A stretch of DNA of 64,000 nt, from positions 1 through 64,000 of IMG/VR virus record IMGVR_UViG_3300046010_015054. One strand, written 5' to 3'. The DNA is from a virus. Below, piece by piece: positions 8,469 to 56,094 of the stretch. Under the pieces are notes generated by a model. That model did not search any database. It was not told where the DNA came from and worked only from the letters and a program-made list of their open reading frames with translations. Each line of letters begins with the position of its first letter. Positions within the stretch are counted from its first letter, which is position 1. Both the position numbers and the translations under genes were made by a program.

Positions 8469-8471
8469 ATT

Positions 8472-9926: not shown

Positions 9927-9989
9927 AACCTTTATTTCTTTGATATAAAGATACGAAACGGAATTCACCCAACCACATTATATACGGAT

Positions 9990-10320: not shown

Positions 10321-10322
10321 CA

Positions 10323-10882: not shown

Positions 10883-10965
10883 AACTAATTAAATTAAATA
10901 AAATTAAACAAATCGTTCAATGGGGTAAAATTACGAAACGGGTTTGGGGTAACCAAACCCCTCCT

Positions 10966-35907: not shown

Positions 35908-36357
35908 TTATTCAGGTAATACACCAATATATGAGAGTGCTTCCATATAATCACGTTCATGAAAATGCATCATAGTAGACATATCCATTTTCCACTCATA
36001 ATCTTTACCTTTTTCTTTAAACTTGGCTCTTTCTTCTTCAGGCATTGGAACTGCTTTAACCGCAGCCCAACCCCAAACAGCTCCTTTACCAGCACCATCA
36101 GCAAATACCATTCCTTTATCAGGAATATTTACAATTGAAGGCATCCAGACAAGACCATTTTCATCTTCACCCATTAATTCTTTATATAGTTCTGGAAGAA
36201 GTTCAAGTTGTTCTTTTAAAAATTCTGAGTCACGTTTCATAGCTGAATTGGCTTGAAAGCCACAGCCATAACAAAAGTGTAATGTGATTTTAGAGTTTAC
36301 TTCTTGTACATAACAAGCATCTGAACCACAGCGGTTACAAGTTGTTAGATTATCCAT
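35908..36357 (-). CDS. Zn-ribbon hypothetical protein
   Basis: CNRCG...CYGCG. Confidence 0.7.
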   Translation of the reverse strand: MDNLTTCNRCGSDACYVQEVNSKITLHFCYGCGFQANSAMKRDSEFLKEQLELLPELYKELMGEDENGLVWMPSIVNIPDKGMVFADGAGKGAVWGWAAVKAVPMPEEERAKFKEKGKDYEWKMDMSTMMHFHERDYMEALSYIGVLPE

Positions 36358-37630: not shown

Positions 37631-39066
37631 TAATATACTAAACTATGATTTATATAATTAGGTTTAATTTTATCAACTTTGATAACATCGTATTTAGGTC
37701 TTGGAGACCAAGTATGAAATAGAGTATCACAAGCTTCAATAACTCTCTCACCCATAATTTCAGCAGTAAAACCGGCTTCTACATTAGTAGCCCATTTTCG
37801 ACCTTCTTCACCTCGTCTTTGTTTTTCTTCAGGTGTCATTTCGTAAAGCTCCATAATTCTATCAGAAGCATCTTCAGGAGTACATCTATCATCCCAAATA
37901 TAAGGAGTTAAAGGGCTACCAACTAAAGAACGATTTGAAGGATATACGGGAAAAGCCCACTCACCATGTTTAGTTAAAGTTTTTCTATTATTTGAAGGTA
38001 ATTCTGGGGTAGGTTCAAACCAACCTCCTTTTTTACCTTCAAATCTCATTTGGTCTTGCATTCCTCCTGTAACATTAGCAATAAATGGGGTTCCGGTTAC
38101 CATTGCTTCAGTTAATGATAAACCCCAACCTTCAGCTGATGATAAAAGAATAACAGCATCTGATATGTTATACATTTTATTTAAAGTAGCATGATCCACT
38201 TTATCATAAGAGAAATAAACATTATCATAAACATCTCCAAATAATAATTCTTTAACAGCTACTAAATCTGTACCTGCTTCACTAACTAATTCAGTATGAA
38301 GTAAAAAAGCACATTTATTAGCTTTTTCTTTAGGTAGTTTATCTAAAAATAATTTAAATGCTAATAAAGTATCTGGGGTAGATTTTCTTCTAATATTTCT
38401 AGAATTAAAAAATAAAATAAAATCATATTCTTTACCACCAAATAATTTCTTTTTAATTTCTAATAATTCTGTACTATTTTTTTCAATAGGATAAAAGAAA
38501 TTAGTATTAATTCCATGGGGGATGTATCTTGTTACTTTATCTTTTATTTTATCACCTAAAACTAATTCATTAATTAATTTAGTTTGTTTTGAGATAGCTA
38601 ATAAAGCATCACACGATTCATAAAATGCTCTATTATAATGAGGAGCAGGGTAATCATCCCAAATATTAAGATAAATGATAGGCATTTTTTGGCGAATCTC
38701 ATTTTCAATCTGAAAAAGCCAAATAAAGTATCTAGGATCTGTAATTAAAAAGATAGCATCAAAATGTTCTCCTTTTAAAATAGCTCTAATTTGATCAGCA
38801 CTACCATAACCAGTATTAGCCATGATATGAACATATGAATCACTAAGCCCTGTTAATTTATCAGTCTCAGGACTTAAATCAAAACGTTTTCCATTTTCTG
38901 GGTGGTTAACTGCTCCTCCTAAATTTACCCAATTAAAATGGTGGGCTGTGTGTAGGATAATTTCTTTACCCATACTACCAACACCCGAAGGAAATCTAAT
39001 ATCATCTGTAATTAATAATATTTTCTTCCTCTCATTTTGAGGAAGATATCGAAACTTATCTTGCAT
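37630..39066 (-). CDS. GT4 (GT-B) glycosyltransferase
   Basis: SGVG, IPHGI, RNIRRK, AEGWGLSLTEAM. Confidence 0.9.
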   Translation of the reverse strand: MQDKFRYLPQNERKKILLITDDIRFPSGVGSMGKEIILHTAHHFNWVNLGGAVNHPENGKRFDLSPETDKLTGLSDSYVHIMANTGYGSADQIRAILKGEHFDAIFLITDPRYFIWLFQIENEIRQKMPIIYLNIWDDYPAPHYNRAFYESCDALLAISKQTKLINELVLGDKIKDKVTRYIPHGINTNFFYPIEKNSTELLEIKKKLFGGKEYDFILFFNSRNIRRKSTPDTLLAFKLFLDKLPKEKANKCAFLLHTELVSEAGTDLVAVKELLFGDVYDNVYFSYDKVDHATLNKMYNISDAVILLSSAEGWGLSLTEAMVTGTPFIANVTGGMQDQMRFEGKKGGWFEPTPELPSNNRKTLTKHGEWAFPVYPSNRSLVGSPLTPYIWDDRCTPEDASDRIMELYEMTPEEKQRRGEEGRKWATNVEAGFTAEIMGERVIEACDTLFHTWSPRPKYDVIKVDKIKPNYINHSLVY

Positions 39067-39071
39067 GAAAA

Positions 39072-39260
39072 CTATTTTTCTATTTCTAAATTATTGTGGT
39101 TATGTAATTGTTTTCTAAAATTCTCATCAGTAAGATATAAATGAATAGCTCGGTCGGCAAGTTTTTGAAACGAAAACTTATGTCTTACACACGAAACTTT
39201 AAATTCATTAAATAAATCACTTTGGATTTTTACACTGGTTAATGTCATATCTTTTGCCAT
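39072..39260 (-). CDS. small ribbon-helix-helix-like DNA-binding protein
   Basis: LTSVKI beta strand followed by two helices. Confidence 0.55.
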   Translation of the reverse strand: MAKDMTLTSVKIQSDLFNEFKVSCVRHKFSFQKLADRAIHLYLTDENFRKQLHNHNNLEIEK

Positions 39261-39308
39261 ATTTATATAATTTTATATACGAACATACATATATCGGGAT
39301 TTACATTT

Positions 39309-40253
39309 CTATTGAAAATTGCACAAATTTTTCATGTCTTTAAAAACACAATATTGACAATTCCATTTAGAGGGTTTTGCTTCTTGTTGATGCTTATTAT
39401 AAGTACCATCTTTTGAGAAAGCAAGCTCAATAAACGTATTAAGTCTATTTGTGGCTTGATTTAATTTTATCTTACCAGAAGTAGGCTTATGAGTTTGTAT
39501 TCTTCTATCAGGATACTCACTTTCTTCATTTATTTTTCTTTTTAGAATAAAATATTCTATATCTATATTTTCTACTGGGTAGTCAAATTGCTCAGCAAAA
39601 AATTTTTTATAAAGAATAAGTTGAGAATTTTTTACTTCATCACCTTTTTCTTTTTGTTTCCAACCCCTAGTACTAGTTTTAATATCTATAATTTTTACAT
39701 TTCTAGTATTTTCATTATAAAGTACTAAATCAAGTAAACCTTTATAAAGAATACTAGGGTATCCTGAGTGTGGTTTAAGTATAATTGGGAGTTCAATTCC
39801 TAATAAATGCCAAAATCTTTTACTAAAATATTTACCTTTATTTTTCTTAAACCAATTTATAATAGCTACACCATCATTAAAAAATTCTCTTAGTTCAGTA
39901 GCACTAGAAAAATGGATTTTATTGTTTTTTTCGTAATCTTGTTTATATTGATTACGTAATTTTTCTTCAAATAATCCAATAATATTTTCTCTATCAGCTG
40001 CAGCTATACTTTTACTATACATTATTTGTAGATAATGTTGCAATGTTTCATGCATAGCAGTTCCAAAGGTCATATGAATGCTAAATTCACTTTTATAATG
40101 ACCATCACGATAAAGAAGTGCCCATTTATGAGGACACTGCTCGAAAATTTGATATTGACTAAAAGAAATTACTCTGTTTTTAGTATAATCTATTTCAATT
40201 AGTTTTTTATCTCTTACTTCTTTTAATATACTTGGTTCTTTCTTTTTAGCCAA
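39309..40253 (-). CDS. PD-(D/E)XK nuclease (RecB/Cas4-like)
   Basis: SFSQ..CP, FGTAMH, E..GLLD..IIDIKT, QL.LY, CQYC..C. Confidence 0.88.
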   Translation of the reverse strand: MAKKKEPSILKEVRDKKLIEIDYTKNRVISFSQYQIFEQCPHKWALLYRDGHYKSEFSIHMTFGTAMHETLQHYLQIMYSKSIAAADRENIIGLFEEKLRNQYKQDYEKNNKIHFSSATELREFFNDGVAIINWFKKNKGKYFSKRFWHLLGIELPIILKPHSGYPSILYKGLLDLVLYNENTRNVKIIDIKTSTRGWKQKEKGDEVKNSQLILYKKFFAEQFDYPVENIDIEYFILKRKINEESEYPDRRIQTHKPTSGKIKLNQATNRLNTFIELAFSKDGTYNKHQQEAKPSKWNCQYCVFKDMKNLCNFQ

Positions 40254-40255
40254 AA

Positions 40256-41350
40256 CTATTCTTTTATAAATCTAGTATTTAATTCTAAAATATTTTGAGG
40301 AGATACTTTATTTGTAAATTCTTCTACTACTCCGTTTCTTATATTTTTATTAAATACTATATATTCTCCTTCTAAATCTAATTCATCATAACACCACGTA
40401 AAAGGATTAAGTGAAATGTTTTTATGATAAATTTCTTTCCCTTCTAAATTAATAACCTTACATTCAATCTCCAAGCTATCTTCTTCATTCCAGTAAAATA
40501 AACCTATTTTATTAGTAAGTTCTTTTTTATCATTTTTATGTAAAAGAATTTTACAAACTTTAGGTATATTTTTCCATTTATCTACCCACCCTCCAGGATT
40601 ATTAATAAGATCAAATTTAGAATTAGGATATTGATCTCTAACACTTCCTGGGTGGTTTATACCTTTAAATGGGTATTTTTGTTTTTGGTAATAAAATATT
40701 GTTGGGATAATATATTCAATCCATTTACCATAATAGTTAATTTTTTTACATAAATCCCAATAGTCTTTATCATTATTTACTAGATTAAAACCGGTAAATA
40801 AATCTGTAGAAAAGCCTACCATATGAACATCCATTAATCTATGATGAGGTTTGGCCCAATCTCCTTCTTGACGTTCACCATATAAAAGAAAATGTTCAAA
40901 TGTTTCTAGGTCATTTTTTAAAGATTCTAAATCATTTAGATCAAATTCGGTATCAGCTTCAATTCTAAAAATACGTTTATAACCTAAATTTTCAGCTGCT
41001 GTGCTAGCAAATATAAAACTATTGTAAATATTAGCAGTATGATCTTGAACACCTACTAAGGGTAACCAATTTTCATGGGTACCCATAGATGTTTTTACAT
41101 AAACATAAGGACGTTCATATAATTCTTTATCTAAAAGTTCTTGAGGGGGATGCCCTATCATAAATCCTCCTGTATGATTCCAGTAATGTTTTACTTTAGA
41201 ATCTAACCCCCATGAAAATGAAAATTTATTAAATAAAGCAATTTCATATGGTAAAATTGAATTAAGTTGATCTATTAAATTAGAACATACTTTTGCTCTT
41301 TCTGGGGTAGATAAATAACCATCTACAACTATTAATAGATCTGAGGTCAT
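40256..41350 (-). CDS. hypothetical protein, possibly glycosyltransferase-like
   Basis: 364 aa; RIEAD motif; locus context. Confidence 0.5.
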   Translation of the reverse strand: MTSDLLIVVDGYLSTPERAKVCSNLIDQLNSILPYEIALFNKFSFSWGLDSKVKHYWNHTGGFMIGHPPQELLDKELYERPYVYVKTSMGTHENWLPLVGVQDHTANIYNSFIFASTAAENLGYKRIFRIEADTEFDLNDLESLKNDLETFEHFLLYGERQEGDWAKPHHRLMDVHMVGFSTDLFTGFNLVNNDKDYWDLCKKINYYGKWIEYIIPTIFYYQKQKYPFKGINHPGSVRDQYPNSKFDLINNPGGWVDKWKNIPKVCKILLHKNDKKELTNKIGLFYWNEEDSLEIECKVINLEGKEIYHKNISLNPFTWCYDELDLEGEYIVFNKNIRNGVVEEFTNKVSPQNILELNTRFIKE

Positions 41351-43803
41351 ACTTTTATGATATTTGTGTAAATAATCTTATTAGTATATTCTTCTACTAT
41401 TCTAGTTTCATAATAACCTGAGTTTAGAAATAAATCACTTAAGAAAAAACTCCAATATTTAAAAATTTCTTGATAATTTAAAGTATAAAGAATCTGATCA
41501 TTGTTTAATATTTCAAATCTAACAACAGGTTGGAGATTTTTATCTCCTAAAAACGAATTTTTAGTCCACCAAAAAGAATTATTTTTGTATTCAATTAAAA
41601 AATCATCTTGAGATAATATCGTTTTAAAATAATTTTCTTTTAATTGGTTTTGAAATTCAGGATTTTTAAACCCATGAAATGCAATTAAATCATTTTCATG
41701 TTGAGGTAAGACTAATTCATCAGATACTGGATGTTTGCCATATTTGTAGTTATGGAATATTTCCATATCAACGTATGGGATTTCTTCAATATCTACTAAT
41801 GGGAGGCATTTTCTGTAATTATATCTATTAATTAATAAATTAGCAGAATCTTCATCATGTAAAGCAAATATACCTGGTTTAGTATTTTTGTAAGTATTAA
41901 ATAAATTAATTTGTTCTTCAAAAAACCATTTACAAGTTTTATCAAAAACAATTACATTAGTTTTTCTTCTAGGATAAACATGAACTGGGTCACCTGTAAC
42001 ATCTGCTAAAATATTTAAAGGGCTAGACCATTCTTCTCCTTCAATTAAATTCATAACAACAATCCTATCGTGAGTATGTGAATTTATTAAAGGAAATCCT
42101 TCTAAATGCTTAAAGTATTTAACTATAGAATCAGCATTTACTGTCAAAGAAATATCTGTATCAACGTACACAAATTTACTTTCGGGAAGATATTCAACTA
42201 CATCTGTTAAAATAGAAGGCTTTAAGGATAATACATTATCATATTTACCTCTAGCATTTAATTCACCTAATTCAACATCTAATCTTCTTACTATAAATTG
42301 ATCACTTAGTTTAAAAGCTAAATCTGAGGTATAGTTTATAGTATAAAGAATACATTTTCTATTAGAAAATTGTTCTATTGAATTAATTAAAACCTGAAGT
42401 AAAGATTCATAATTTTTAGTAAAATGGGTTACCCAATAAAAATCTTCTAAATAAACTTTTTTATATTCTGAAATTATAGAATTTCCTCTAAAGGATAATT
42501 TTGTATAAGGTTTATTATAGAAATGGTGAAGCATAATTTCCTTATCTTTACAATAAGTTTTACCCCCAACCCAAGTAGCTCCATAAATTACTTTACCTGA
42601 TTCTTCTTCTAGATTTTGACTATAAGTAATTACTTTAACTTTTTTATTTTGAGTAGCCCAATCATTCAAATCCTTTTCTCCTATACCATAAATTTCTTTA
42701 GTATCAAAAATATTATAATATCTTTCAGTCTGGAATTGGTTTAGTATTTCAGGATCATTTTTAAAAATTAATAAAGGACCTCCTAATCTATTATGAAAAT
42801 TTTCTCCTCCAGTACTTATAAAATCATATTCTCCTAAATAAGGATTTACCCAATTGTACAGATCACCCATTAAAGTGTCTATATCAAAAATACCAAAATA
42901 GTCATACTTTGAATAATCAATTATGTCGCTAAACATATTTACAAAGTATGAAAACTTTAAATCAGTAATTTTTTTATTACCTCCTAAAAGTTGTAATTCT
43001 CTATTATTAGCACGACTAAATCTTTGTTTTAATTCTTCTATATTTAAAGGAATAATATTATAATTAGAAGGTAAATTAGAAATATCTACTTCTTGATCTG
43101 TAAAAAAGTAAATATCAAAAATTTCATTTTGCTTTGTAATAGTTTCTTTATGAAACTGATAATAATCTGGTAAAGGTCCTAACCAAACTTCAATTAATAA
43201 TACTTTGGGTTGAGAGTTATATTTTAAAATAACATCTCTTTTAGCATTAAATTCTATAAATGAATATCCTACACTTTTAGCTTTATTAATAGTATCTATT
43301 CTAGTTTGGTCTGGGGTTAATTCATTAGCTTCAAAAATAATAGTTTCAGGGTATACATTATGTCCTCCTTCTAGGATATTATTAACAATAATAGTATCGT
43401 GCCCTTCAGCATCTATTTTTAAAGTTTTAACACTTTCTATATTATACCTTTCTACTAAATCTTTCCAAGTAAGAACTTCTACTTCATCTATTTTTAAAAG
43501 ATGTTCTAAACTTCGTTCTTTTAACTCTCTAAGAGTAACAGGATGAGGTTCACCAATAGAATTACAACCTTTTAAATACCAAGAAAGATTATTAGATTCT
43601 ATGTCTTCAGGTTCAACATAATAAACCTGAGTAATTCCTGAATAGTTACTAATGGCATGGTTTAATTTAGTAACTTTTTCTTTATTTGGTAGGCGATTAA
43701 GGTATAAATTAACAGCATCTATAGATAATCCTATTTCATCAGTTGAGGATTGGATAAGAGTTTCAAAATCAGAAGTACCTATTTCTATAAAATCGTAATT
43801 CAT
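41347..43803 (-). CDS. multidomain FkbM-like methyltransferase + two glycosyltransferase-like domains
   Basis: FIEIG...LKIDAEGHD; WLGPLP.Y...FFTD...DLK...FDIDTLMG; VYVDTD...HDE. Confidence 0.7.
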   Translation of the reverse strand: MNYDFIEIGTSDFETLIQSSTDEIGLSIDAVNLYLNRLPNKEKVTKLNHAISNYSGITQVYYVEPEDIESNNLSWYLKGCNSIGEPHPVTLRELKERSLEHLLKIDEVEVLTWKDLVERYNIESVKTLKIDAEGHDTIIVNNILEGGHNVYPETIIFEANELTPDQTRIDTINKAKSVGYSFIEFNAKRDVILKYNSQPKVLLIEVWLGPLPDYYQFHKETITKQNEIFDIYFFTDQEVDISNLPSNYNIIPLNIEELKQRFSRANNRELQLLGGNKKITDLKFSYFVNMFSDIIDYSKYDYFGIFDIDTLMGDLYNWVNPYLGEYDFISTGGENFHNRLGGPLLIFKNDPEILNQFQTERYYNIFDTKEIYGIGEKDLNDWATQNKKVKVITYSQNLEEESGKVIYGATWVGGKTYCKDKEIMLHHFYNKPYTKLSFRGNSIISEYKKVYLEDFYWVTHFTKNYESLLQVLINSIEQFSNRKCILYTINYTSDLAFKLSDQFIVRRLDVELGELNARGKYDNVLSLKPSILTDVVEYLPESKFVYVDTDISLTVNADSIVKYFKHLEGFPLINSHTHDRIVVMNLIEGEEWSSPLNILADVTGDPVHVYPRRKTNVIVFDKTCKWFFEEQINLFNTYKNTKPGIFALHDEDSANLLINRYNYRKCLPLVDIEEIPYVDMEIFHNYKYGKHPVSDELVLPQHENDLIAFHGFKNPEFQNQLKENYFKTILSQDDFLIEYKNNSFWWTKNSFLGDKNLQPVVRFEILNNDQILYTLNYQEIFKYWSFFLSDLFLNSGYYETRIVEEYTNKIIYTNIIKV

Positions 43804-44381
43804 TATTTTATTTTTTTAGCGGGAATCCCCACATAAACCCCAGATTCTTCTATAGGTTTTACTACGCATGAATTCATACCAATGGTAGATGAGCTATGGA
43901 TTGAAAGTTTTTCTTTAATAGACGAGTTAGTACCCATATAAACCATATCAAATATGGTAACATTACCTGATACTATGGCTCCAGGCATAGCACTAAAATA
44001 AGAACCTATTTTACAATCATGACCAATTTGATTACCTCGATTCAAAATAGAATGTCTACCTAATTCAATATTTGTAGTTAATATGCTATTTACTCCTATA
44101 AAACTACCTACTCCTACTTTGATATTACTATCTAATATTTGAACTGTTGGATGAACAAAAGTAAAATATTGAGTTTCTTTAGGTAAACGTTGAACTATAT
44201 CAAAACGATCTTTTGGGTCAGCTACGGCAACCATCATAGCATATTCTTGAGGATTAAACTCAGAAATAGGCTTAGCTACATCATTAGCATACTGATCATC
44301 TACAAAAAATGTAACTTCATCTTCAATCTGACATGCTACTTCTCTTGCATGTCCTCCATAACCGAATAGTGCTAATTTCAT
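43803..44381 (-). CDS. NeuD/PglD-like left-handed beta-helix sugar acetyltransferase
   Basis: GYGGHAREV, hexapeptide repeats, IGHD, VGIPAK. Confidence 0.9.
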   Translation of the reverse strand: MKLALFGYGGHAREVACQIEDEVTFFVDDQYANDVAKPISEFNPQEYAMMVAVADPKDRFDIVQRLPKETQYFTFVHPTVQILDSNIKVGVGSFIGVNSILTTNIELGRHSILNRGNQIGHDCKIGSYFSAMPGAIVSGNVTIFDMVYMGTNSSIKEKLSIHSSSTIGMNSCVVKPIEESGVYVGIPAKKIK

Positions 44382-45037
44382 TGTTGATAAATTGGGAATT
44401 TAGATAGATCTGGGTATGGTAGAGTTAAATCTTCGTTTTGTTTTTTACTACCATCTAAATTATAAAATTGATTCATAAGTAATAAACCACGAGCTGCTAA
44501 TTCAGGCATCATATAAAAATTCCACCCTAGCATATCAAGATTATCGTCATGATATGAACACTCACGTCTTCCTGAATATCTGGCTCTTTTGAACCAATGA
44601 TAAGCTGCTAAATTATCAGTTAAGATAGCTCCTCCTTTACTTAATTTAAAATGTTTATATGGGCCCGTAAAAGAAATACACATATGGGTTCCTTTTAAGT
44701 ACATATCTGCTGTAAATCTTAAAGCAGAATCATACACATTACTATTACCTAATTCATAGGCTCCAGTTAAAGTACCCTTTTTTGTATCTAAACATCCGTA
44801 ATTTTTAGTAAACTTAACTTTTAAACCAGCATGAATAATTTCACAAGGTACAGATGGGTAAGTTCGATTTGGGATAATAATATGATCACTAATAATACTT
44901 TTCTTTACATTTTTTTCATAATATAAAGCTAAAAATAAAGCATTAGACATGTTATCTAATGTAACGACATAAGGGGCCCCAGTATAATCACCTAGGGCTT
45001 TTTCAAACTCGTTTGTTATATCATAAACGTTTTTCAT
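44378..45037 (-). CDS. short DegT/DnrJ/EryC1/StrS aminotransferase-like protein
   Basis: FE.AL..Y.GA, DSA, SF...K...GGAI, GWNFYM; only 219 aa. Confidence 0.75.
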   Translation of the reverse strand: MKNVYDITNEFEKALGDYTGAPYVVTLDNMSNALFLALYYEKNVKKSIISDHIIIPNRTYPSVPCEIIHAGLKVKFTKNYGCLDTKKGTLTGAYELGNSNVYDSALRFTADMYLKGTHMCISFTGPYKHFKLSKGGAILTDNLAAYHWFKRARYSGRRECSYHDDNLDMLGWNFYMMPELAARGLLLMNQFYNLDGSKKQNEDLTLPYPDLSKFPIYQQ

Positions 45038-45446
45038 ATTCCATCTTAATATAATTTCTATCTCTTACAAATCCACGCTCACCTGTTTCTTTAAAACCTA
45101 ATTTTAAATATAAATCTTTAGCAAAATTATCACTAAAAACCCATAAACTAGCATAAGTTTTATCTTTTAGATACTCTTGATAAGCAGCTTTAGCATATCC
45201 TTGTTTTCTATGTAAAGGATGGATATCACATCCAACTTCATCTCCATTAGTTCTTAAATAACCTACAGCTTCTAAGTGTTTATTAATTATAATATACCAA
45301 GGAGATGTTAAATTACTAAACCAGCTTTCACATTGTTCAAGATTAAAAATAGAATTATTCTCTAAATTTCTTCTAGTTGAATAATCATTTCTAACTTCTA
45401 AAAGAAATGGTAAATCTTCTTTAGTTAAAAGTCTTAATGTTACCAT
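45021..45446 (-). CDS. GNAT acetyltransferase (PseH-like)
   Basis: LRLL..EDL, HRKQGYA, N.A..LY.KLGF. Confidence 0.85.
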   Translation of the reverse strand: MVTLRLLTKEDLPFLLEVRNDYSTRRNLENNSIFNLEQCESWFSNLTSPWYIIINKHLEAVGYLRTNGDEVGCDIHPLHRKQGYAKAAYQEYLKDKTYASLWVFSDNFAKDLYLKLGFKETGERGFVRDRNYIKMEYEKRL

Positions 45447-46633
45447 CCTTTTTTAATACAATCAGCAATGTATTCTCTTTCTTCAGGAGTAACCCACCAA
45501 CCAACTGGGATTGAAACTATTTTTCCAATTGTTTTATCCAATGTAGGGAGTGAAGTTCTAAATTCTTTAACGGCTGTATGCTTATCATTTCTTTCATGTA
45601 CTTGAGATACAGCAATTTTACATTCATCCATCCAACGATAGAAACCATCTCTATTGTCAACTAACATTGAGTAAATCCAAAAAGAACTTTCATGACCAAA
45701 ATGACGATCTAAAAGAGTTACACCCTTAACATCATTAAGATTTGAATCATAAAAAAAAGCATTTTCTTTATGTTTATTTACTATTGAGTTGATGTGTTTT
45801 AGATTTTCTATACCAATAGTCGCATTAACATCATTCATGTGGAATTTATAACCCCACTCTTCAATATTGGCTTCACAACGGAAATCTTTACGATCACCAT
45901 CTCTGTCAATTCCATACCAACGAATTAATTTACCTCTATCATGTAGTTCTTTATGAGGTGAAAGAAGTAAACCACCGTCTACTGAAGTAAGGTGTTTAAT
46001 TGCTTGAAGAGAGAACATAGTTAGATTACCATGACTTCCAATTGGTTTGTTTTTATAGTAAGAACCAAATGAATGAGCTCCATCTTCAATTACAGCAGGT
46101 TTAAAACCATACATGTGATAGGCTTTATTCTGTATTTGTTTAATTTTATCTAAATCGTTAGGGTACCCACCCCAATGGACTAACATTATAGCTTTGGTTG
46201 TGGGGCTAATTTTACGAGCTAAGTCATCCAAATCCATATTAAGTGTAGTAGGGTCAATATCTACCCACTTAATTTTTAAACCATGAGCTAAAATAGGCCA
46301 ATTTGAAGCAGTACACGTCATAGCTGTAGCTAACACTTCATCTCCAGGTTGTAAGCCTGGCCAATTGGTTTCGTATCCTATAACTCCTTCAAAAACTTTA
46401 TTATAAGTAGCAGGTTTTTTTAATAAATGAAGTGCTAAATGTAAAGCAGAAGTTCCAGAATTTACGGTTTGAACATAATCATGATTAAAATAGGTTTTAA
46501 GTTGATTTTCAAACTTTTCAACTTGGGGACCTTGACCAATGTAGCCACTGTTAAGAACTTTTGTTACCTCTTCAGCAGCGGTATCCGCCATGAATACTTT
46601 AAATAATGGAATTTTATTTTTTGGACTAAACAT
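45440..46633 (-). CDS. DegT/DnrJ/EryC1/StrS PLP aminotransferase
   Basis: NSGTSALHLA, VHWGG, IEDGAHSFG, SLQAIKHLT..DGG. Confidence 0.93.
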   Translation of the reverse strand: MFSPKNKIPLFKVFMADTAAEEVTKVLNSGYIGQGPQVEKFENQLKTYFNHDYVQTVNSGTSALHLALHLLKKPATYNKVFEGVIGYETNWPGLQPGDEVLATAMTCTASNWPILAHGLKIKWVDIDPTTLNMDLDDLARKISPTTKAIMLVHWGGYPNDLDKIKQIQNKAYHMYGFKPAVIEDGAHSFGSYYKNKPIGSHGNLTMFSLQAIKHLTSVDGGLLLSPHKELHDRGKLIRWYGIDRDGDRKDFRCEANIEEWGYKFHMNDVNATIGIENLKHINSIVNKHKENAFFYDSNLNDVKGVTLLDRHFGHESSFWIYSMLVDNRDGFYRWMDECKIAVSQVHERNDKHTAVKEFRTSLPTLDKTIGKIVSIPVGWWVTPEEREYIADCIKKGW

Positions 46634-46634
46634 A

Positions 46635-47075
46635 TTATTTATATTTTTCTATATAATCACTACAAACACCAAGTGTTTTTTCGTTAGGTTCTTTATTAAA
46701 TACTTCGGGCATAACTAAAATACCTCTTTCAAATAAATTTGTTGACCAAATATAACCCTTAGATGTTAAAACACCAAGGTCATTTTCATGCCAAAAATAA
46801 TTTACTTTATCACCATTTTGATCTAATTGATTTAATGTAGATAAAGCAGCCATATTTTTACAATGAATCCAAAGATTAGGATAGTTTTTATCTAAAAGAT
46901 CAAAAGGAAATTCATATTGTGGTTCATCATGCCCAAGCATAAATTTTCCGTTTTCAAGCCAAACATCAATTTCAACATCATATCCTGCTTTTAAAGCTTC
47001 AAAAATATATTCTGGGTGGTTTTCGCGTTCAGGGTTGGGGCCTGAAATGTTTCCGCGGTGTGATATTAATTTCAT
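46635..47075 (-). CDS. small GDPD/PLC-like phosphodiesterase
   Basis: ISHRGN, EN, DVEIDVW, LGHD, WIHCKN, GVCSD. Confidence 0.7.
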   Translation of the reverse strand: MKLISHRGNISGPNPERENHPEYIFEALKAGYDVEIDVWLENGKFMLGHDEPQYEFPFDLLDKNYPNLWIHCKNMAALSTLNQLDQNGDKVNYFWHENDLGVLTSKGYIWSTNLFERGILVMPEVFNKEPNEKTLGVCSDYIEKYK

Positions 47076-47767
47076 TTTTTAATTATTATTGACATATTAT
47101 TTCCTAAAGGTTCTTTAATTTTTATAATAGGTAAAACACCAAATAATTTTTTTAGAAACTTAATTACTTTAGGTGTCATAAACTCAGGAAATATATCGTG
47201 AAGTACAATTATATATTCTTTATCTAATAAAGGATAAATTGCTTCTATATCTTTTATTAATTGATCAGGAAAATGTCCTCCATCAATAAAAATAAAGTCT
47301 AAAGGCTCTGTAATGTGCTTTTTAATACATTTTTCAGTATCATTAGGACTCCAACCTATTTCTAAAAAAACATTATCTTTTAAATCAAAATGTTCTATTA
47401 AGTAATTAGCAGATTTATAACCATCTGCATCATAAAACAATGAAGGATTTTGATTTTCATAAGTCCAAAAAGAATTTACTTCTTCTTCAATATAGGCATC
47501 CATTGAAACAAGTTTACCTCCTGTTTGTTTAAATCCTAATCCTAAAGCGGTTGTACTAATGCCAAACGCTGTAGCTATTTCAAAACCATTTTTACAATTA
47601 TATTCTACTATAGTATTTTTTAAAAATTCAAATTCAGTAGGTCTAATTGAATAAGGAAAATCATGACCAACCATTTTTAAATTTTTACCTAAACCATATT
47701 CTCCAGGAGCTATTTCATACTGAACAGGTCCATCTTTTAGATTAAGTAGATTTTCAAAATAGTCCAT
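47072..47767 (-). CDS. class I methyltransferase (Methyltransf_24-like)
   Basis: EIATAFGIST, FIFIDGGH, VLHD. Confidence 0.8.
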   Translation of the reverse strand: MDYFENLLNLKDGPVQYEIAPGEYGLGKNLKMVGHDFPYSIRPTEFEFLKNTIVEYNCKNGFEIATAFGISTTALGLGFKQTGGKLVSMDAYIEEEVNSFWTYENQNPSLFYDADGYKSANYLIEHFDLKDNVFLEIGWSPNDTEKCIKKHITEPLDFIFIDGGHFPDQLIKDIEAIYPLLDKEYIIVLHDIFPEFMTPKVIKFLKKLFGVLPIIKIKEPLGNNMSIIIKK

Positions 47768-47769
47768 AA

Positions 47770-48420
47770 TTATTTTATTTTAGCAAATCCAATCCCCCAA
47801 TCATCTTGTTGCTCACAATATTGAGTAACTTCAAAAATATCTGGGTTTAGGTTTTTAATAATTCTACTAGGGCCTGGGTGATAATTTGTGTCATGGAAAC
47901 CTATTACCCCACCAGGTGCCATGAAATCAACATACCAAAGTTCATCAATAACTTGATTAATAGAATGCCAACCATCTACAAATAAAAAGTCAATTTGAGA
48001 TATTTTTAGAGCATCTAATTTAGCTTGAATTTTTTCATAATCTTCACTTTTAGATTGTAAAGTAAAAATATTTCGACCCATTCCCTGTAAGAATGTTTTA
48101 TCATCAATATCAATTCCTAAATAAATAGCTTTAGGATTTTTATGTTTTAAAAGTATAGAGGTTGAAGTTTGGTCGTAGGATTGGTTATAAGTAATTCTTG
48201 AAACACCAATTTCGACAATAACCTTAGTTTGGTCTTTTACTTTAGTAAATTCTTCGGTCAATGCTGCTTGGTTGCACATTGAAAATTCTTTGTTCCCTAC
48301 TAATTCAAAAGGGTTAGGGAATTGAGGTATAAAATCTTTATCGTTATCTTCTAAATTTTCTAGTCTAATATCATTTACAAGATATTTTTGTATATTATGT
48401 TTTCTAAAGTTGTTTTCCAT
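47770..48420 (-). CDS. class I methyltransferase (Methyltransf_24-like)
   Basis: IVEIGV, FLFVDGWHS, PGGVIGFHDT, GP. Confidence 0.8.
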   Translation of the reverse strand: MENNFRKHNIQKYLVNDIRLENLEDNDKDFIPQFPNPFELVGNKEFSMCNQAALTEEFTKVKDQTKVIVEIGVSRITYNQSYDQTSTSILLKHKNPKAIYLGIDIDDKTFLQGMGRNIFTLQSKSEDYEKIQAKLDALKISQIDFLFVDGWHSINQVIDELWYVDFMAPGGVIGFHDTNYHPGPSRIIKNLNPDIFEVTQYCEQQDDWGIGFAKIK

Positions 48421-48430
48421 TTTATTATTA

Positions 48431-49666
48431 TTAAAAAATTCTATATGCTAAATCTTCAGAAAACTCTTCTTTACCCCATTTTTCAATAGCAGCTTTATAT
48501 TCAGGTTTATCTGTTTCGTGATTAATTGCTTGTTTCATAGCTAAACCACCTGCTAAAGTTCCCATAGGATGACCATGTAATGCTCCTCCTACATTAGCTA
48601 ACCAATCATTACTTTCTAACGACTGATTAATAAATTGAACTAGTCCTGGGTGCATACCGCAACTTAAAGCAGGGACAATATTGTAATGCCAAAGTACTTT
48701 TAAGGCATCTCTTAATTCTTCTTCGTCTTGATTCATGTAACCACCAATCATACCAGCGTGGATTGAATCAGCACCTGACCATCCTGCTATCTTACATATT
48801 ACAGGCCAGTAAATATGGAATGGTGCTCTTCTATCTGTAAAGAATTTATCACCACTCTTTTGGAAGTGAATCCATAAACAAGGATTTTGTTTTCTAATTG
48901 CTCTGTATATTCCTAATCCACTCCAAACGTTAATGTGAATGCCATTTCCACCATTATCTGCTACAAATTTAGCTCTTTCTAAGGCATATGGGCTATCCCC
49001 ATTTATACAAAAACAATAAATAACGTCAGGAGCATTTTCTTTAAGCCATGATGCAATCAAAGGTACTCTTACTTCAAGAGGACAATGTTCTGGGTTAGCT
49101 AATAATTCATCTTCTTTAATAAAATTAACTCCCCCATAAACCATTTCTTTTACTGCTTCTAGTAGTACTTCAGGACTCATCCCTACTTTAGGTTTAATAA
49201 TACCTCCTAAAAATGGTTTGTCATAAACCTTATTAAATTTTCTCCAACCATCAATTCCGTAGGCAGGTTTTAAAGCAAATTGTTCCTCTACTTTTTCTGG
49301 GAGTTGGATATCAAGTACTTGGCATTTTTGAATTTCTAAGATATCAACTTGACCACCTGCTATATGGCATAAAATTTGAGAAATACCATCTTCTTCAAGA
49401 TTAATATTAGCTAAAGGAAATGCTATTTTTACATTTCCTGCTTTAGTAGATTTAAGATATTCTTGATTAGCTAAAATAAAACAACTATGGTTTTCAAACA
49501 TTTCTTCTGTTTCCCATATACTTCTATTATTAGGATTACCTATACTTTGACCTATAGCTAAATTCCAAGCTGCTTCTCGAAGTGAAGTTTTTGCTTCTAA
49601 ATAATAAGTAACTATAAAGTATTTTTCTTTATTTATTTCTTCTTCTGTTCTAAAAATTTTAATCAT
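48431..49666 (-). CDS. RuBisCO-like protein (form IV RLP)
   Basis: IIKPKVG, GG.NFIKEDE, IHAG, PALSCG.HPG, GGA.HGHP.G...G..A..QA. Confidence 0.9.
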   Translation of the reverse strand: MIKIFRTEEEINKEKYFIVTYYLEAKTSLREAAWNLAIGQSIGNPNNRSIWETEEMFENHSCFILANQEYLKSTKAGNVKIAFPLANINLEEDGISQILCHIAGGQVDILEIQKCQVLDIQLPEKVEEQFALKPAYGIDGWRKFNKVYDKPFLGGIIKPKVGMSPEVLLEAVKEMVYGGVNFIKEDELLANPEHCPLEVRVPLIASWLKENAPDVIYCFCINGDSPYALERAKFVADNGGNGIHINVWSGLGIYRAIRKQNPCLWIHFQKSGDKFFTDRRAPFHIYWPVICKIAGWSGADSIHAGMIGGYMNQDEEELRDALKVLWHYNIVPALSCGMHPGLVQFINQSLESNDWLANVGGALHGHPMGTLAGGLAMKQAINHETDKPEYKAAIEKWGKEEFSEDLAYRIF

Positions 49667-49669
49667 AAC

Positions 49670-49990
49670 TTATACTATATACTTATCTCCTTTTACACTA
49701 GGGGTTTTTACAACTATTAGTTCACAATTAGTTAAAAATTCAGGAACTGCTACTTCACCCGGGTGTAGAATAAATATATCACCCTTTTTTAAGTAAGTCC
49801 CGCTTAACTTCATCTTCCCACGAATAATATAATTTATTTCAGTAGCTACTTTGTGGTAGTGGTTATCCCAAATTTCTCCTTTTGGGTGAAACTTATAACT
49901 AACTTCAAATTCTTTTGTAGAATAAGCAGTTGGTTCGAAGTCACCTACAAACCAACCACCTACCATATTTTTACCTTTTAAAACGTCCAT
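49670..49990 (-). CDS. cupin-fold protein
   Basis: GGWFVGDFEP, HYHK.ATE..Y..G, GDIF.L.PGE. Confidence 0.75.
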   Translation of the reverse strand: MDVLKGKNMVGGWFVGDFEPTAYSTKEFEVSYKFHPKGEIWDNHYHKVATEINYIIRGKMKLSGTYLKKGDIFILHPGEVAVPEFLTNCELIVVKTPSVKGDKYIV

Positions 49991-51363
49991 TATTTAAAAT
50001 TTTCAAGATAATACGTTAACTCTTCAGGGGTACCTAATCCCCACATATCATCTTTATCAATCATAAAACATGAAATATGTTTATCATCTTGAATAGCTTC
50101 ATTATATACAGGACAAACATAAAATTCATTATTTACCCTAATATTTTTAGAAATCATTTGTTCAGCATATTTTACAAAGTCTGAACCTTGTTTCCAGTAA
50201 TACATTCCAACTGTTGCATTATCTGAGATTGGGTTTTTTTCTGCTACTTCGGTTACTCTATTATTTTCATCTACTTTAGCAAATGACCATTTAGGATGAG
50301 TGCCTTTAAAACATAAAATACCTCCATCAACACTAGTTTCATTCATTTTATAAAAGAATTCATTTGAATCCCAAATAATATGTTGATCTGAATTAGCAAA
50401 CAAAAGTGGAGAATCATTATCAATATATTCTTTAGCTAATAAAGCAGTACAAGCAGCACCTTCGGTTACACCATCTACTTCTATAATTTTACATCCTGGA
50501 GTAAGTAAATTGAGTAGAGTATCTAAGTTGTATTTTTCTCTATGTTCTTTTTGTACTGCATAGATAAAATTAGCTTTAATGTTAAGCATTTCAACTACAA
50601 CTTGAATCATAGGTTTACCTTTAACATCAATTAAAGGTTTAGGGAATGTATAACCCGCTTGAGCAAATCTAGAACCTGCTCCAGCCATTGGTATAATTAC
50701 ATTTAATTTATTATCTCTCCAAGCAGGTGATTTCATGACGTATCCTTTTTCTATTTCTGTTAATTTATTAAAAATATTTGTATAAGTAACTTCTTTTGGA
50801 TTTTTTACTCTTAAAATATGTGATTTACTTCTTGAAGCTGCTAATAATCCATAAGGTGAATCTTCTACAATAAGTGTTTCTTCTGGGAGGCAACTCATCA
50901 TAGAAATAGCCTTCCAATACATTTCAGGGTGTGGTTTGCTATTTTTAACGTCTTCGTTAGAAATAACTAAATCCATAAATTCCATTATCCCTAACTTAGA
51001 AAGTACAGTTAATACTGTTTTTCGAATGCTATTAGAACAAACTGCTAGTTTATAACCGCTTTCAGATAAAGATGACATCATTAATTGAAATTCTTCATTC
51101 GGTTTAAGGGCACGAAGTTCTTCTAAAGTATATTTTTGTTTATCTTCCCAAACTTTAGAATGTAATTCAACTGGTAAACCTTTTTCCTTAGTTAACATTT
51201 CAAGTTTTTGATTGGTTTTTAAACCATCATATTTACTTAAATGTTCTTTCCAACTAATAGAATATTCATTCCCTAAAGCTTTATTTAGGGCTTCATAATG
51301 AAGATTTTTAGCTTCAACTAATACTCCATCTAAATCAAAAATAATTAACTTTATCATTTCCAC
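49990..51363 (-). CDS. HAD phosphatase fused to sugar-phosphate nucleotidyltransferase
   Basis: FDLDGVL, KPHP, VEDS; then IPMAGAGSRF...PKPLI, EK.PIS..ATVG.YY, GLGTPE. Confidence 0.88.
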   Translation of the reverse strand: MEMIKLIIFDLDGVLVEAKNLHYEALNKALGNEYSISWKEHLSKYDGLKTNQKLEMLTKEKGLPVELHSKVWEDKQKYTLEELRALKPNEEFQLMMSSLSESGYKLAVCSNSIRKTVLTVLSKLGIMEFMDLVISNEDVKNSKPHPEMYWKAISMMSCLPEETLIVEDSPYGLLAASRSKSHILRVKNPKEVTYTNIFNKLTEIEKGYVMKSPAWRDNKLNVIIPMAGAGSRFAQAGYTFPKPLIDVKGKPMIQVVVEMLNIKANFIYAVQKEHREKYNLDTLLNLLTPGCKIIEVDGVTEGAACTALLAKEYIDNDSPLLFANSDQHIIWDSNEFFYKMNETSVDGGILCFKGTHPKWSFAKVDENNRVTEVAEKNPISDNATVGMYYWKQGSDFVKYAEQMISKNIRVNNEFYVCPVYNEAIQDDKHISCFMIDKDDMWGLGTPEELTYYLENFK

Positions 51364-51716
51364 TTATTTCTCATAACTAGCTGGGCAATGATTCCATAGT
51401 TTGAAATGTCAATAAAACTATCAATTGCGGCTTCTCCTGCTACGTAATTTTTACCATTACGCTTAAGAATATTCTTTAAGCGATTGATTTTATCATTACA
51501 GCGAAGCCAGATGCCTGTGATTGAAAGGTTTATATCATCTTGGTCTTCGAGTGTTGAGCCCAAAGCAATATTACCTAGACCGTAATCCATCATTTTAGCA
51601 GCGAACAATTCATATTGTTCCTCTTGAATTTGCTTAAATTCAGCTGCTAATTCAGGGTATGTTTTTTGAAAATCTGTAACTGCTTTTGAATTACCGTAAC
51701 CTGCTTGTTCTTCCAT
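51354..51716 (-). CDS. nucleotide-modification-associated domain 1 (DUF1599/Nmad1)-like protein
   Basis: K..DYG, LR.NDK.NRL, DSFIDISNYGII. Confidence 0.7.
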   Translation of the reverse strand: MEEQAGYGNSKAVTDFQKTYPELAAEFKQIQEEQYELFAAKMMDYGLGNIALGSTLEDQDDINLSITGIWLRCNDKINRLKNILKRNGKNYVAGEAAIDSFIDISNYGIIAQLVMRNKWK

Positions 51717-51717
51717 T

Positions 51718-52395
51718 TTATTTATTGTTTATGTAAATTATAACTTCATTATAGTATTCTATAAAATGCTCATTCCACAAATCCCATTTTATATCTATCC
51801 CATCTACAGAATATACAGCATGATTTGGAAAAAGCCTAAGGAAAACATCCCTAAATACTCTAAATTGTTGTTTTAGTTCTGGGGTAGATAGATGCCATTC
51901 ACCTACTGCTACTCCTAGATTATCTTTTAACCAACAAAGATTTTCAAAATTAAAAATACTATATTCTCCTCCTTCACAATCTGTTTTAAGAAAATCTATC
52001 TTATTAATATTATTTTCTTTTAGTAAAGTTTTAAATGAAATACCCTCTAATGTTGAAGATTTTGTTGGATCAAAAATTTCAGTAGTAGCTAATTCACCAT
52101 CAGTAGGTGTTATAGCTTTTTTAATAATAGTAACAGGACCTCCTTGTGTATTTTTTTCTAAAGTAGGGTGTTCAATTACTGATGGTTCTATACAAAATAC
52201 TTTAGATGGATTTTTATGAAGTATAGAATAAGTAAAAGGACCAATGCTAGAACCAACATCTAATACAATATCACCTTCTTCAACTTCAAAAAACTTTTCG
52301 TATAAATTTTGTTCAAAAATTTCAAATGTAATAGCCTTTTGGTGAAAAGCATCTCCTTCAGCCATCCAACCCCAGTCAAAACCTTTTAAATCCAT
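51718..52395 (-). CDS. FkbM-family methyltransferase
   Basis: VLDVGSSIG.F, IEP, IDFLKTDCEGGE, EWH. Confidence 0.88.
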   Translation of the reverse strand: MDLKGFDWGWMAEGDAFHQKAITFEIFEQNLYEKFFEVEEGDIVLDVGSSIGPFTYSILHKNPSKVFCIEPSVIEHPTLEKNTQGGPVTIIKKAITPTDGELATTEIFDPTKSSTLEGISFKTLLKENNINKIDFLKTDCEGGEYSIFNFENLCWLKDNLGVAVGEWHLSTPELKQQFRVFRDVFLRLFPNHAVYSVDGIDIKWDLWNEHFIEYYNEVIIYINNK

Positions 52396-54147: not shown

Positions 54148-55803
<1,656 letters not shown>

Positions 55804-56094
55804 TTATTTATTAATTTTTGCTAAAATATCATTTTCTTTACCAATCCAGTATTCTTCACCTTGATATTCAAATTTGGTAAATCCTAATGCAGGTAATACA
55901 ACAATATCTCCTACTTCGAGGATAGTTTTAACAAATTTTCCATAACCTGATTCAAAACCAGGGCCAATAGAAATAACTTCTGCTGTTTTATTTCTTTCAC
56001 TACCCAAATCAGGTACAATAATATTACCATAAAGAGTTTCTTCCAATTCAATTGGTTTTACTATAATGGCATTAAATAGGGCTTCTAATTTCAT
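55804..56094 (-). CDS. groES: co-chaperonin GroES
   Basis: GNII.PD, V..GPG, VGD.V, E.DILA; adjacent to groEL. Confidence 0.92.
   Translation of the reverse strand: MKLEALFNAIIVKPIELEETLYGNIIVPDLGSERNKTAEVISIGPGFESGYGKFVKTILEVGDIVVLPALGFTKFEYQGEEYWIGKENDILAKINK

What the first reader, a model, noticed from the sequence alone, without database searches (positions are those of the whole stretch)
46635..51363. Phage RuBisCO-like protein in a candidate sugar-nucleotide pathway
Seen: a full-length 411-aa RLP is tightly linked to a cupin, a HAD-phosphatase/nucleotidyltransferase fusion, two methyltransferases and a GDPD-like protein, all inside a glycosyltransferase locus. By eye, against RuBisCO numbering, it keeps K175/K177 (KPK), K201/D203/E204 (KEDE), H327 and the phosphate-binding glycines. 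It appears to replace E60 (GQSIG), H294/R295 (HFQK) and K334 (GGYM). Established: form IV RLPs do not fix CO2 and perform enolase, isomerase, decarboxylase or transcarboxylase chemistry on sugar-phosphate-like substrates, mostly in salvage or catabolic routes. Inference: this RLP works biosynthetically to make an unusual (possibly branched or rearranged) sugar phosphate, which the HAD/NTase fusion activates for the neighbouring glycosyltransferases.
Basis: partly seen in the sequence, partly recalled or inferred. Interest (0 to 1): 0.85.

Follow-up and report, generated by a model that had tools for sequence, protein, structure and literature searches.

The report
Phage RuBisCO-like sugar-activation cassette
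An uncultured T4-like phage carries a RuBisCO relative that cannot fix CO2 and that travels with, and is sometimes fused to, a sugar-activating enzyme in surface-sugar gene clusters of phages, giant viruses, SAR11, Legionella and tiny archaea, so it probably helps build an unusual activated sugar, a role never tested for this family.

Summary
Window 48431-49666 (-) encodes a full-length 411-aa form IV RuBisCO-like protein (RLP). It is translationally coupled to a HAD-nucleotidyltransferase (NT) fusion, a 106-aa cupin, two methyltransferases and a 146-aa pared-down GDPD barrel, inside a glycan-biosynthesis block of a 170-kb, 34% GC myophage.

Among RLP lineages under 80% identical:
- 29 of 31 viral and 21 of 22 cell-labelled lineages have the NT within 3 kb.
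- Cupin and mini-GDPD follow in about 80% of viral and about 50% of cell-labelled lineages.
- Natural fusions exist: RLP-NT, RLP-NT-cupin (on a giant-virus contig) and GDPD-RLP.

The clade (85 sequences, support 100) has a near-invariant signature: E60Q, N123G, H294Q, R295K, H298D, K334Y and G380C, with K175, K177, K201, D203 and E204 kept. It is separate from form II/III RuBisCO, MtnW and OiaX. Cellular copies lie in surface-glycan loci, including the region beside the 23S rRNA gene in a complete Pelagibacter genome and next to LicD in Legionella.

A biosynthetic, nucleotide-activation role is well supported by context. The substrate, product and order of steps are unknown. Phage RLPs were published in 2019 (Jaffe et al.) without a function. 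This scan has already reported the same cassette on other genomes.

The parts
49990..51363 (-). HAD (beta-phosphoglucomutase-like, residues ~1-190) fused to a sugar-phosphate nucleotidyltransferase (residues ~215-457)
   Evidence: Pfam HAD_2 1.3e-32, NTP_transferase 1.7e-9. NCBIfam TIGR02009 3.4e-27, below its cut-off. NT half against the PDB: 4evw 6e-22. NT family profile: 4evw 1e-34, then GMPP, RmlA, GlmU and HddC. The NT is found within 3 kb of the RLP in 29/31 viral and 21/22 cell-labelled lineages.
49670..49990 (-). 106-aa metal-binding cupin
   Evidence: phrog_24762 6e-34. Invariant H44, H46, E51. PDB profile hits to cupins. AF2 pLDDT 89 and Foldseek cupin hits. Next to the RLP in 24/31 viral lineages. 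Fused to RLP-NT in P0277 and P0278.
48431..49666 (-). Form IV RuBisCO-like protein, 411 aa, of the 'phage/SAR11/DPANN' clade
   Evidence: Pfam PF00016 and PF02788. Best PDB hit 3nwr, 1e-33. NCBIfam scores far below every equivalog cut-off. 2234 metagenome homologues. Clade support 100 and residue signature.
47770..48420 (-). 216-aa class I SAM methyltransferase (Methyltransf_24), a frequent cassette member
   Evidence: Pfam 9e-6. Directly follows the RLP in 13/31 dereplicated viral lineages.
47072..47767 (-). 231-aa Methyltransf_24 methyltransferase, specific to this phage lineage
   Evidence: Pfam 1.5e-10. A homologue was found in only 1 of 83 loci, the window itself.
46635..47075 (-). 146-aa mini-GDPD (pared-down glycerophosphodiester-phosphodiesterase-like barrel with the catalytic motifs kept)
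   Evidence: phrog_34507 7e-31. Invariant H6, R7, E18, N19, E35, D37, H49, D50. PDB profile 7e0v 7e-5. VIA-align Z 10.7 to GDPDs. In 25/31 viral lineages. Fused to an RLP in P0171.
33826..34530 (-). DUF7796-like protein. This family often follows the cassette elsewhere and is a possible transferase of unknown fold.
   Evidence: Pfam DUF7796 6e-5; 6/10 family members match, best 9e-10. Within 3 kb of the RLP in 19/31 viral lineages. No PDB relative.
36350..46633 (-). Surrounding glycan-building genes: PseC-like aminotransferase, GNAT, DegT-like fragment, PglD-like acetyltransferase, 818-aa FkbM-domain protein, 364-aa unknown, PD-(D/E)XK nuclease, two GT1
   Evidence: Pfam and NCBIfam.
51354..52395 (-). 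Upstream genes in the same coupled run: DUF1599 (120 aa) and an FkbM methyltransferase (225 aa)
   Evidence: Pfam and NCBIfam fkbM_fam 1.6e-13. DUF1599 lies near the RLP in only 6 of 83 loci, so it is not core.

Best explanation
The RLP is the signature enzyme of a mobile four-gene cassette, NT - cupin - RLP - mini-GDPD, here with a HAD domain fused to the NT and two methyltransferases inserted. The cassette makes a nucleotide-activated sugar-like unit for glycan decoration.

Proposed steps (all inferred, none shown):
1. The RLP uses its retained carbamyl-Lys/Mg2+ site (K201, D203, E204) and K175 to enolise a common ketose phosphate, most likely a pentulose phosphate. It releases an isomer. 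It has lost every residue for CO2 addition and C-C cleavage.
2. The cupin does a metal-dependent follow-up step such as isomerisation, epimerisation or elimination. It is dispensable in some lineages.
3. The NT joins the phosphate to an NMP, giving an NDP- or CDP-linked unit. Where the beta-PGM-like HAD is present, it would move or trim a phosphate first.
4. The mini-GDPD, or LicD in Legionella, handles the phosphodiester, probably by transferring the phospho-sugar to an acceptor. Methyltransferases, DUF7796 proteins and glycosyltransferases then tailor and use it.

The order of steps 1 and 3 could be reversed. In the phage the product would decorate either the host surface glycan or the phage's own fibres.
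For: Shown here:
- The RLP is genuine but non-carboxylating.
- The genes are translationally coupled.
- IMG/VR holds at least 341 viral contigs with relatives. In 83 fetched loci with otherwise unrelated flanks the order NT-cupin-RLP-GDPD is exact in 32.
- Dereplicated counts: NT 29/31 viral and 21/22 cell-labelled; cupin 24/31 and 10/22; GDPD 25/31 and 11/22.
- Fusions: P0122 RLP-NT, P0171 GDPD-RLP, and P0277/P0278 RLP-NT-cupin.
- The clade is monophyletic (support 100) with a near-invariant active-site signature. The outgroup contains form III, form II, MtnW and OiaX sequences.
- Cellular copies lie in glycan loci. The complete Pelagibacter chromosome carries the module beside the 23S rRNA gene. 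A SAR11 single-cell genome has it between pheT/lepA and GT17/GT61. Four Legionellaceae have RLP+NT next to LicD. Francisellaceae and Turneriella have Wzz or GT2 nearby.
- In a Pfam census of 150 random neighbours, methyltransferases and glycosyltransferases dominate and no kinase or isomerase is among the 25 commonest families.
- The NT profile is nearest to sugar-1-P nucleotidyltransferases.

From established knowledge (my memory, not tested here): LicD-family enzymes transfer phospho-alcohols from CDP donors; S. pneumoniae AbpA cytidylylates xylulose-5-P directly; known RLPs do enolisation chemistry.
Against: - No enzyme was assayed. The substrate, product, nucleotide and order of steps are unknown.
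- Characterised RLPs all work in salvage or catabolism.
- GDPDs are normally hydrolases, not transferases.
- The LicD/mini-GDPD complementarity rests on one lineage (Legionellaceae).
- Many 'cellular' hits are MAG or SAG contigs that could be viral contamination. The Pelagibacter complete genome, the Legionella and Azospirillum isolates and L111, which has housekeeping flanks, are not.
- The HAD domain and the methyltransferases are not conserved, so the window's version may differ from the core.
Confidence: 0.62

Rival explanations
1. A SAM by-product salvage module. The RLP and cupin would work like the MTA-isoprenoid shunt of Rhodospirillum rubrum and R. palustris, where a DeepYkr RLP is a 1,3-isomerase and the adjacent cupin is a methylsulfurylase. 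Alternatively RLP, HAD and cupin would mimic MtnW, MtnX and MtnD. Either way the module would clear inhibitory by-products for the many phage methyltransferases.
For: RLP next to a small cupin is exactly the known shunt pairing (PMC5893883). The window also has a HAD and several SAM methyltransferases.
Against: - SAM methyltransferases make SAH, not MTA.
- No MtnP, MtnA, MtnK or MtnB appears in the window block or in the neighbour census.
- The universal partner is the NT, not the cupin or HAD.
- There are fusions to the NT and to GDPD.
- MtnW model scores are far below cut-off.
- Cellular copies sit in glycan loci.
Confidence: 0.1
2. A catabolic or salvage cassette. The mini-GDPD would cleave a phosphodiester-linked sugar or polyol from host envelope polymers or nucleotides, and the RLP and cupin would process the released phosphate ester for phage metabolism.
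For: GDPDs are hydrolases (fold match).
Against: An NT is a biosynthetic, PPi-releasing enzyme and is the most conserved partner, and it is fused to the RLP. The context is glycosyltransferase- and methyltransferase-rich. The cassette lies in the SAR11 region beside the rRNA operon and next to the LicD transferase.
Confidence: 0.1
3. A donor for DNA or nucleotide hypermodification. The activated unit would be attached to phage DNA bases rather than to glycans.
For: DUF1599 ('nucleotide modification associated domain 1') lies directly upstream. T4-type phages are known to glycosylate DNA (established knowledge).
Against: DUF1599 accompanies the RLP in only 6 of 83 loci. The same cassette is chromosomal in SAR11, Legionella and DPANN glycan loci. 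No hydroxymethylase was seen in the block.
Confidence: 0.05
4. An auxiliary carbon-fixation gene, that is, a working RuBisCO.
For: RuBisCO fold. JGI annotation calls homologues 'ribulose-bisphosphate carboxylase large chain'.
Against: K334Y, H294Q, N123G, E60Q, R295K and H298D are near-invariant. The form III model scores 155 bits against a 497-bit cut-off. No small subunit or phosphoribulokinase was seen in the annotated block of the window (29-58 kb); the rest of the genome was not searched for them.
Confidence: 0.01

Closest known systems
'Form IV-like' RuBisCO-related proteins of phages and Beckwithbacteria (Jaffe, Castelle, Dupont & Banfield 2019, Mol Biol Evol, PMC6389311)
   Same: Almost certainly the same clade. 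It is found on IMG/VR myovirus-type contigs, groups with Beckwithbacteria (L100 lies inside my clade), diverges from all other RLPs and has its key residues replaced.
   Different: That paper left the function open and its text does not mention an NTase, cupin or glycosyl context. Here the clade is extended to SAR11, Legionellaceae, DPANN and giant viruses, and tied to a conserved cassette and to fusions.
DeepYkr RLP (5-methylthioribulose-1-P 1,3-isomerase) plus adjacent cupin methylsulfurylase of the MTA-isoprenoid shunt (R. rubrum, R. palustris; PMC5893883)
   Same: An RLP paired with a small cupin. The chemistry is enolisation without carboxylation. The product is a ketopentose 5-phosphate that later meets a cytidylyltransferase (IspD) in isoprenoid synthesis.
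   Different: No MtnP or MtnA partners. The NT and mini-GDPD are the conserved partners. The context is glycan loci. Sequence membership could not be tested because no reference sequence was on hand.
MtnW-MtnX-MtnD (RLP enolase, HAD phosphatase, cupin dioxygenase) of Bacillus methionine salvage
   Same: The same three folds occur in the window.
   Different: MtnW models score 92-125 bits against cut-offs of 409-514. The HAD is absent from most loci. There is no MtnB, MtnK or MtnA.
CDP-alcohol routes for phospho-decoration of glycans: LicC/LicD (phosphocholine), TarI/TarJ (CDP-ribitol), AbpA/AbpB (CDP-xylulose to CDP-arabinitol). Cited from memory.
   Same: An NT of the same fold activates a non-anomeric phosphate ester and a phosphotransferase puts the unit on a glycan. 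LicD sits next to RLP+NT in four Legionellaceae.
   Different: No reductase or kinase is present. An RLP supplies the unit. In most loci a mini-GDPD stands where LicD would be.
GmhB-HddC (HAD phosphatase plus NTase) of GDP-heptose synthesis
   Same: HAD plus NT logic. HddC is among the PDB relatives of the NT.
   Different: The HAD here is beta-PGM-like and is fused. No heptose isomerase or kinase is present.

Membership tests
RuBisCO large-subunit superfamily | N-terminal domain plus C-terminal TIM-barrel catalytic domain | tested here: met
   PF02788 4.3e-6 and PF00016 1.2e-30. 98 PDB RuBisCO/RLP sequences match at E<=1e-3.
Form IV RLP | Keeps the carbamyl-Lys/metal triad (K201, D203, E204) and K175 but lacks residues essential for carboxylation | tested here: met
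   The KEDE and KPK motifs are kept. E60Q, N123G, H294Q, R295K, H298D and K334Y are replaced.
Bona fide RuBisCO (forms I-III) | K334, H294, N123 and E60 present; score above the NCBIfam equivalog cut-off | tested here: not met
   All four residues are replaced. TIGR03326 scores 155.5 bits against 497; PRK13475 scores 98.5 against 489.
MtnW/YkrW DK-MTP-1-P enolase | Equivalog model score; methionine-salvage partner genes | tested here: not met
   NF007095 scores 125 against 409; TIGR03332 scores 92 against 514. MtnW-type sequences fall in the outgroup. No Mtn genes appear among the commonest neighbour families.
OiaX/OiaC apiose-pathway RLPs | Equivalog model score | tested here: not met
   NF042437 scores 114 bits against 700. 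OiaX-type sequences fall in the outgroup.
DeepYkr RLP (MTRu-1-P 1,3-isomerase) | Phylogenetic placement with R. rubrum and R. palustris RLP1; adjacent cupin methylsulfurylase; MtnP/MtnA supply | not testable with these tools
   No labelled DeepYkr sequence could be fetched. Cupin adjacency is present, but no MtnP/MtnA-type family is among the 25 commonest in the neighbour census.
Jaffe 2019 phage/Beckwithbacteria form IV-like clade | On phage (myovirus) contigs of IMG/VR; groups with Beckwithbacteria; outside other RLP clades | tested here: met
   At least 341 IMG/VR contigs. Beckwithbacteria L100 lies inside the clade, and the clade has support 100 against the rest. The test is indirect because their sequences were not compared.
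GDPD (PF03009), for the 146-aa protein | HR...E.D...HD catalytic and metal motif | tested here: met
   Invariant H6, R7, E35, D37, H49, D50. Profile against 7e0v 7e-5.
GDPD (PF03009), for the 146-aa protein | Full (beta/alpha)8 barrel of about 220-250 residues; Pfam model match | tested here: not met
   Only 146 aa and no Pfam hit. The model nevertheless aligns along whole GDPD barrels at Z 10.7 over 139 residues, so it is a trimmed relative.
Cupin superfamily, for the 106-aa protein | Motif G(X)5HXH(X)3-4E(X)6G and a double-stranded beta-helix | tested here: met
   The motif is visible in the alignment. 222 Foldseek hits at E<=1e-3, all listed ones cupin-fold proteins.
Sugar-phosphate nucleotidyltransferase (PF00483) | N-terminal GxGxR(F) loop and a GT-A-like NT fold | tested here: met
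   PF00483 1.7e-9. G14, G16, R18 and F19 are conserved. Profile against 4evw 1e-34, and GMPP/RmlA 1e-11 to 1e-9.
Beta-phosphoglucomutase-type HAD | DxDG nucleophile motif; subfamily model score | tested here: inconclusive
   The FDLDG motif is present. TIGR02009 scores 95.8 bits against a 153 cut-off, and other phosphatase models also hit. Mutase versus phosphatase cannot be told.

The most novel reading that the evidence does not exclude
This RLP clade catalyses a RuBisCO-superfamily reaction not yet described. It would yield a new nucleotide-activated keto-sugar or polyol-phosphate donor. The mini-GDPD would be a new kind of phospho-sugar transferase standing in for LicD. The resulting decoration would be a widespread, unrecognised component of the surface glycans of SAR11 and other microbes, copied by their phages and by giant viruses to remodel host or virion surfaces.
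Probability: 0.3. Interest if true: 0.8.

Novelty: new variant of a known kind. Interest (0 to 1): 0.62.

Why it matters
- RuBisCO's relatives are known only from carbon fixation and from salvage or catabolic routes. A clade hard-wired, even fused, to a nucleotidyltransferase inside O-chain-type loci would give the fold a biosynthetic role in glycan building.
- It would add a sugar donor that current glycan annotation cannot see.
- The carriers include SAR11, the most abundant marine bacterium, together with hundreds of aquatic phages and some giant viruses. The unknown unit may therefore matter for phage-host recognition in the ocean.
- Metagenomic 'rbcL' calls in viromes from this clade should not be read as viral carbon fixation.
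- The hypothesis is directly testable with four small soluble proteins and with cultured carriers.

Tried and rejected
- Megablast of 46000-52000 and tblastn of the RLP against 50,697 phage records gave no match.
- A distant blastn of 4001-12000 found only tRNA matches.
- The clamp loader is at most 40% identical to any cultured phage and GroEL is 57% identical to Flavobacterium phages, so the host is not assigned.
- Contigs of P0122 and P0134 were too short or had no DNA.
- Single-linkage clustering merged the mini-GDPD with a 260-aa family. Alignment showed no real homology. The 260-aa family is DUF7796.
- The DUF7796 profile found nothing in the PDB and showed no relation to LicD by hhalign.
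- Foldseek on the mini-GDPD gave only weak rows (E about 0.01). VIA-align settled the fold.
- The promoter and terminator scan was uninformative: 70 promoter-like sites against 91 expected.
- Literature searches found no functional assignment for this clade.
- The carbon-fixation reading was rejected on residues.

Full report
**Setting.** The window is the first 64 kb of a single 170,105-bp contig with 33.9% GC. It encodes T4-type replication genes: clamp loader gp44/gp62, a GroEL and a PD-(D/E)XK nuclease. Nearly all ORFs lie on the minus strand. No cultured phage is close. The clamp loader is at most 40% identical to any record, and megablast finds nothing.

**Observation.**
- The 411-aa protein has both RuBisCO large-chain domains.
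- Its best solved relative is the uncharacterised Burkholderia RLP 3nwr (1e-33), followed by form III enzymes and MtnW.
- It scores far below every NCBIfam equivalog cut-off: form III 155 against 497 bits, MtnW 125 against 409, OiaX 114 against 700.
- The HAD-NT fusion and both methyltransferases have Pfam support.
- The 106-aa protein is a cupin by motif, by PDB profile search (4e-6) and by fold: pLDDT 89 and 222 Foldseek hits.
- The 146-aa protein keeps the GDPD motifs HR, EN, ExD and HD. It hits GDPD 7e0v by profile at 7e-5.
- Its pLDDT-91 model aligns over 136-141 of 146 residues to 21 chains at Z 8-10.7, nearly all GDPDs or GDPD-like phospholipase D enzymes. It is a pared-down barrel.

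**Active site.** In spinach numbering the RLP keeps K175, K177, K201, D203, E204, H327, S379, G381 and G404. It replaces E60Q, N123G, H294Q, R295K, H298D, K334Y and G380C.

**Distribution.** The word-indexed search found 2234 homologues. An exhaustive HMMER search of 50%-identity representatives found about 20 clusters at 38-54% identity, then a drop to 36% or less where ordinary RLPs and RuBisCOs begin. IMG/VR holds at least 341 contigs with relatives, and 80 were fetched.

**Neighbourhood.**
- In 83 loci whose flanks are otherwise unrelated to the window, an NT homologue is present in 80, the cupin in 66-76, the mini-GDPD in 66 and the 216-aa methyltransferase in 25.
- The order NT-cupin-RLP-GDPD is exact in 32 loci.
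- After dereplication at 80% RLP identity, and requiring at least 3 kb on both sides, the viral counts (n=31) are NT 29, GDPD 25, cupin 24, DUF7796 19 and MT216 13.
- The cell-labelled counts (n=22) are NT 21, GDPD 11 and cupin 10.
- The HAD domain is usually absent. Some loci carry both a HAD-NT+GDPD pair and an NT+cupin+RLP trio.
- Synechococcus phages S-CAM9 and S-PRM1 have the HAD-NT (59% identity) and a mini-GDPD (43%) without an RLP or cupin.
- In a Pfam census of 150 random non-module neighbours, methyltransferases (FkbM and others) and glycosyltransferases dominate. No kinase or isomerase is among the 25 commonest families.

**Fusions.**
- P0122 is an RLP-NT fusion and P0171 is a GDPD-RLP fusion.
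- P0277 and P0278 are RLP-NT-cupin fusions in one chain of about 815 aa.
- P0277 lies on a contig with a Pox_VLTF3 gene, so it comes from a giant virus.

**Cellular carriers.** One scan of species-representative genomes found 48 loci.
- In the complete Ca. Pelagibacter sp. Uisw_094 chromosome the module abuts the 23S rRNA gene. From my own knowledge, this is the SAR11 hypervariable O-chain region.
- SAR11 single-cell genome L111 has the module between pheT/lepA and GT17/GT61 genes.
- Three Legionella isolates and a Tatlockia MAG have only RLP+NT, with a divergent LicD gene beside them (1e-42) and no GDPD or cupin.
- Azospirillum, Turneriella, Elusimicrobia, Francisellaceae, DPANN archaea and Patescibacteria (including Beckwithbacteria) also carry the module.

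**Phylogeny.**
- A FastTree of 165 sequences puts all viral and cell-labelled copies plus 16 representatives in one clade of 85 with support 100.
- That clade has a near-invariant residue signature, and every outgroup sequence tabulated keeps H294.
- The outgroup contains 18 form III-type, 10 OiaX-type, 4 MtnW-type and 1 form II-type sequences.
- With midpoint rooting the deep branches are cellular and the viral sequences sit in the crown. The root is not established.

**Literature.**
- Jaffe et al. 2019 reported about 80 phage 'form IV-related' sequences from IMG/VR that group with Beckwithbacteria. They left the function open and mention no NTase, cupin or glycosyl context.
- The RLP+cupin pairing is known from the MTA-isoprenoid shunt.
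- I found no paper that assigns a function to this clade.

**Earlier findings of this scan.** After my own analysis I looked up this scan's notes. The same cassette has been reported on many other genomes, with the same reading. These notes are not independent evidence.

**Reading.** Context, fusions and cellular loci support a nucleotide-activation route to a glycan building block, with the RLP as an enolising isomerase-type enzyme. The substrate, the nucleotide, the order of steps, the role of the mini-GDPD (proposed to be a LicD-like phosphotransfer) and the acceptor are all inference. The rivals are SAM by-product salvage, catabolism, DNA modification and carbon fixation. Each is less consistent with the universal NT partner and the glycan loci.

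Noticed in passing
DUF7796 proteins might act on virion fibres, which would point to the fibres as a possible acceptor of the cassette's product.
   Followed up: partly
P0203 (metagenome protein, 583 aa): A TIR domain fused to a distant RLP, 27% identical to the window's. This could be a defence-type architecture.
   Followed up: no
P0153, P0162 (metagenome proteins, 726 and 742 aa): IF-2B (ribose-1,5-bisphosphate-isomerase-like) domains fused to form III-type RuBisCO. This puts two steps of the archaeal AMP pathway in one chain.
   Followed up: no
P0155 (487 aa): An unannotated 320-aa N-terminal domain is fused to an RLP of this clade. By eye the domain looks like a glycosyltransferase.
   Followed up: no
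window 44378-45037 (-): A 219-aa ORF matches only the first ~70 positions of the DegT aminotransferase model. It lies just downstream of a full-length PseC-like aminotransferase and may be a remnant or a new domain.
   Followed up: no
window 54148-55800 (-) and 55804-56378 (-): A phage-encoded GroEL (PF00118 1.4e-68; 57% identical to Flavobacterium phage GroEL) is preceded by two ~95-aa ORFs that could include a co-chaperonin.
   Followed up: no
L009:7802-9675: In the closest relative (RLP 97% identical), a DUF7796 gene and a homologue of window ORF 40256-41350 sit between the HAD-NT and the cupin. The cassette is therefore rearranged even between near relatives.
   Followed up: partly
L095:4707-5708: The Pelagibacter locus has a D-2-hydroxyacid dehydrogenase (SerA-like), a second HAD-NT and a CTP_transf_3 gene near the RLP. 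These may hint at the substrate supply.
   Followed up: no
window 4700-5900 (approx.): The distant blastn of window 4001-12000 matched only annotated tRNA genes (tRNA-Leu, tRNA-Arg, tRNA-Met) of many unrelated phages.
   Followed up: no
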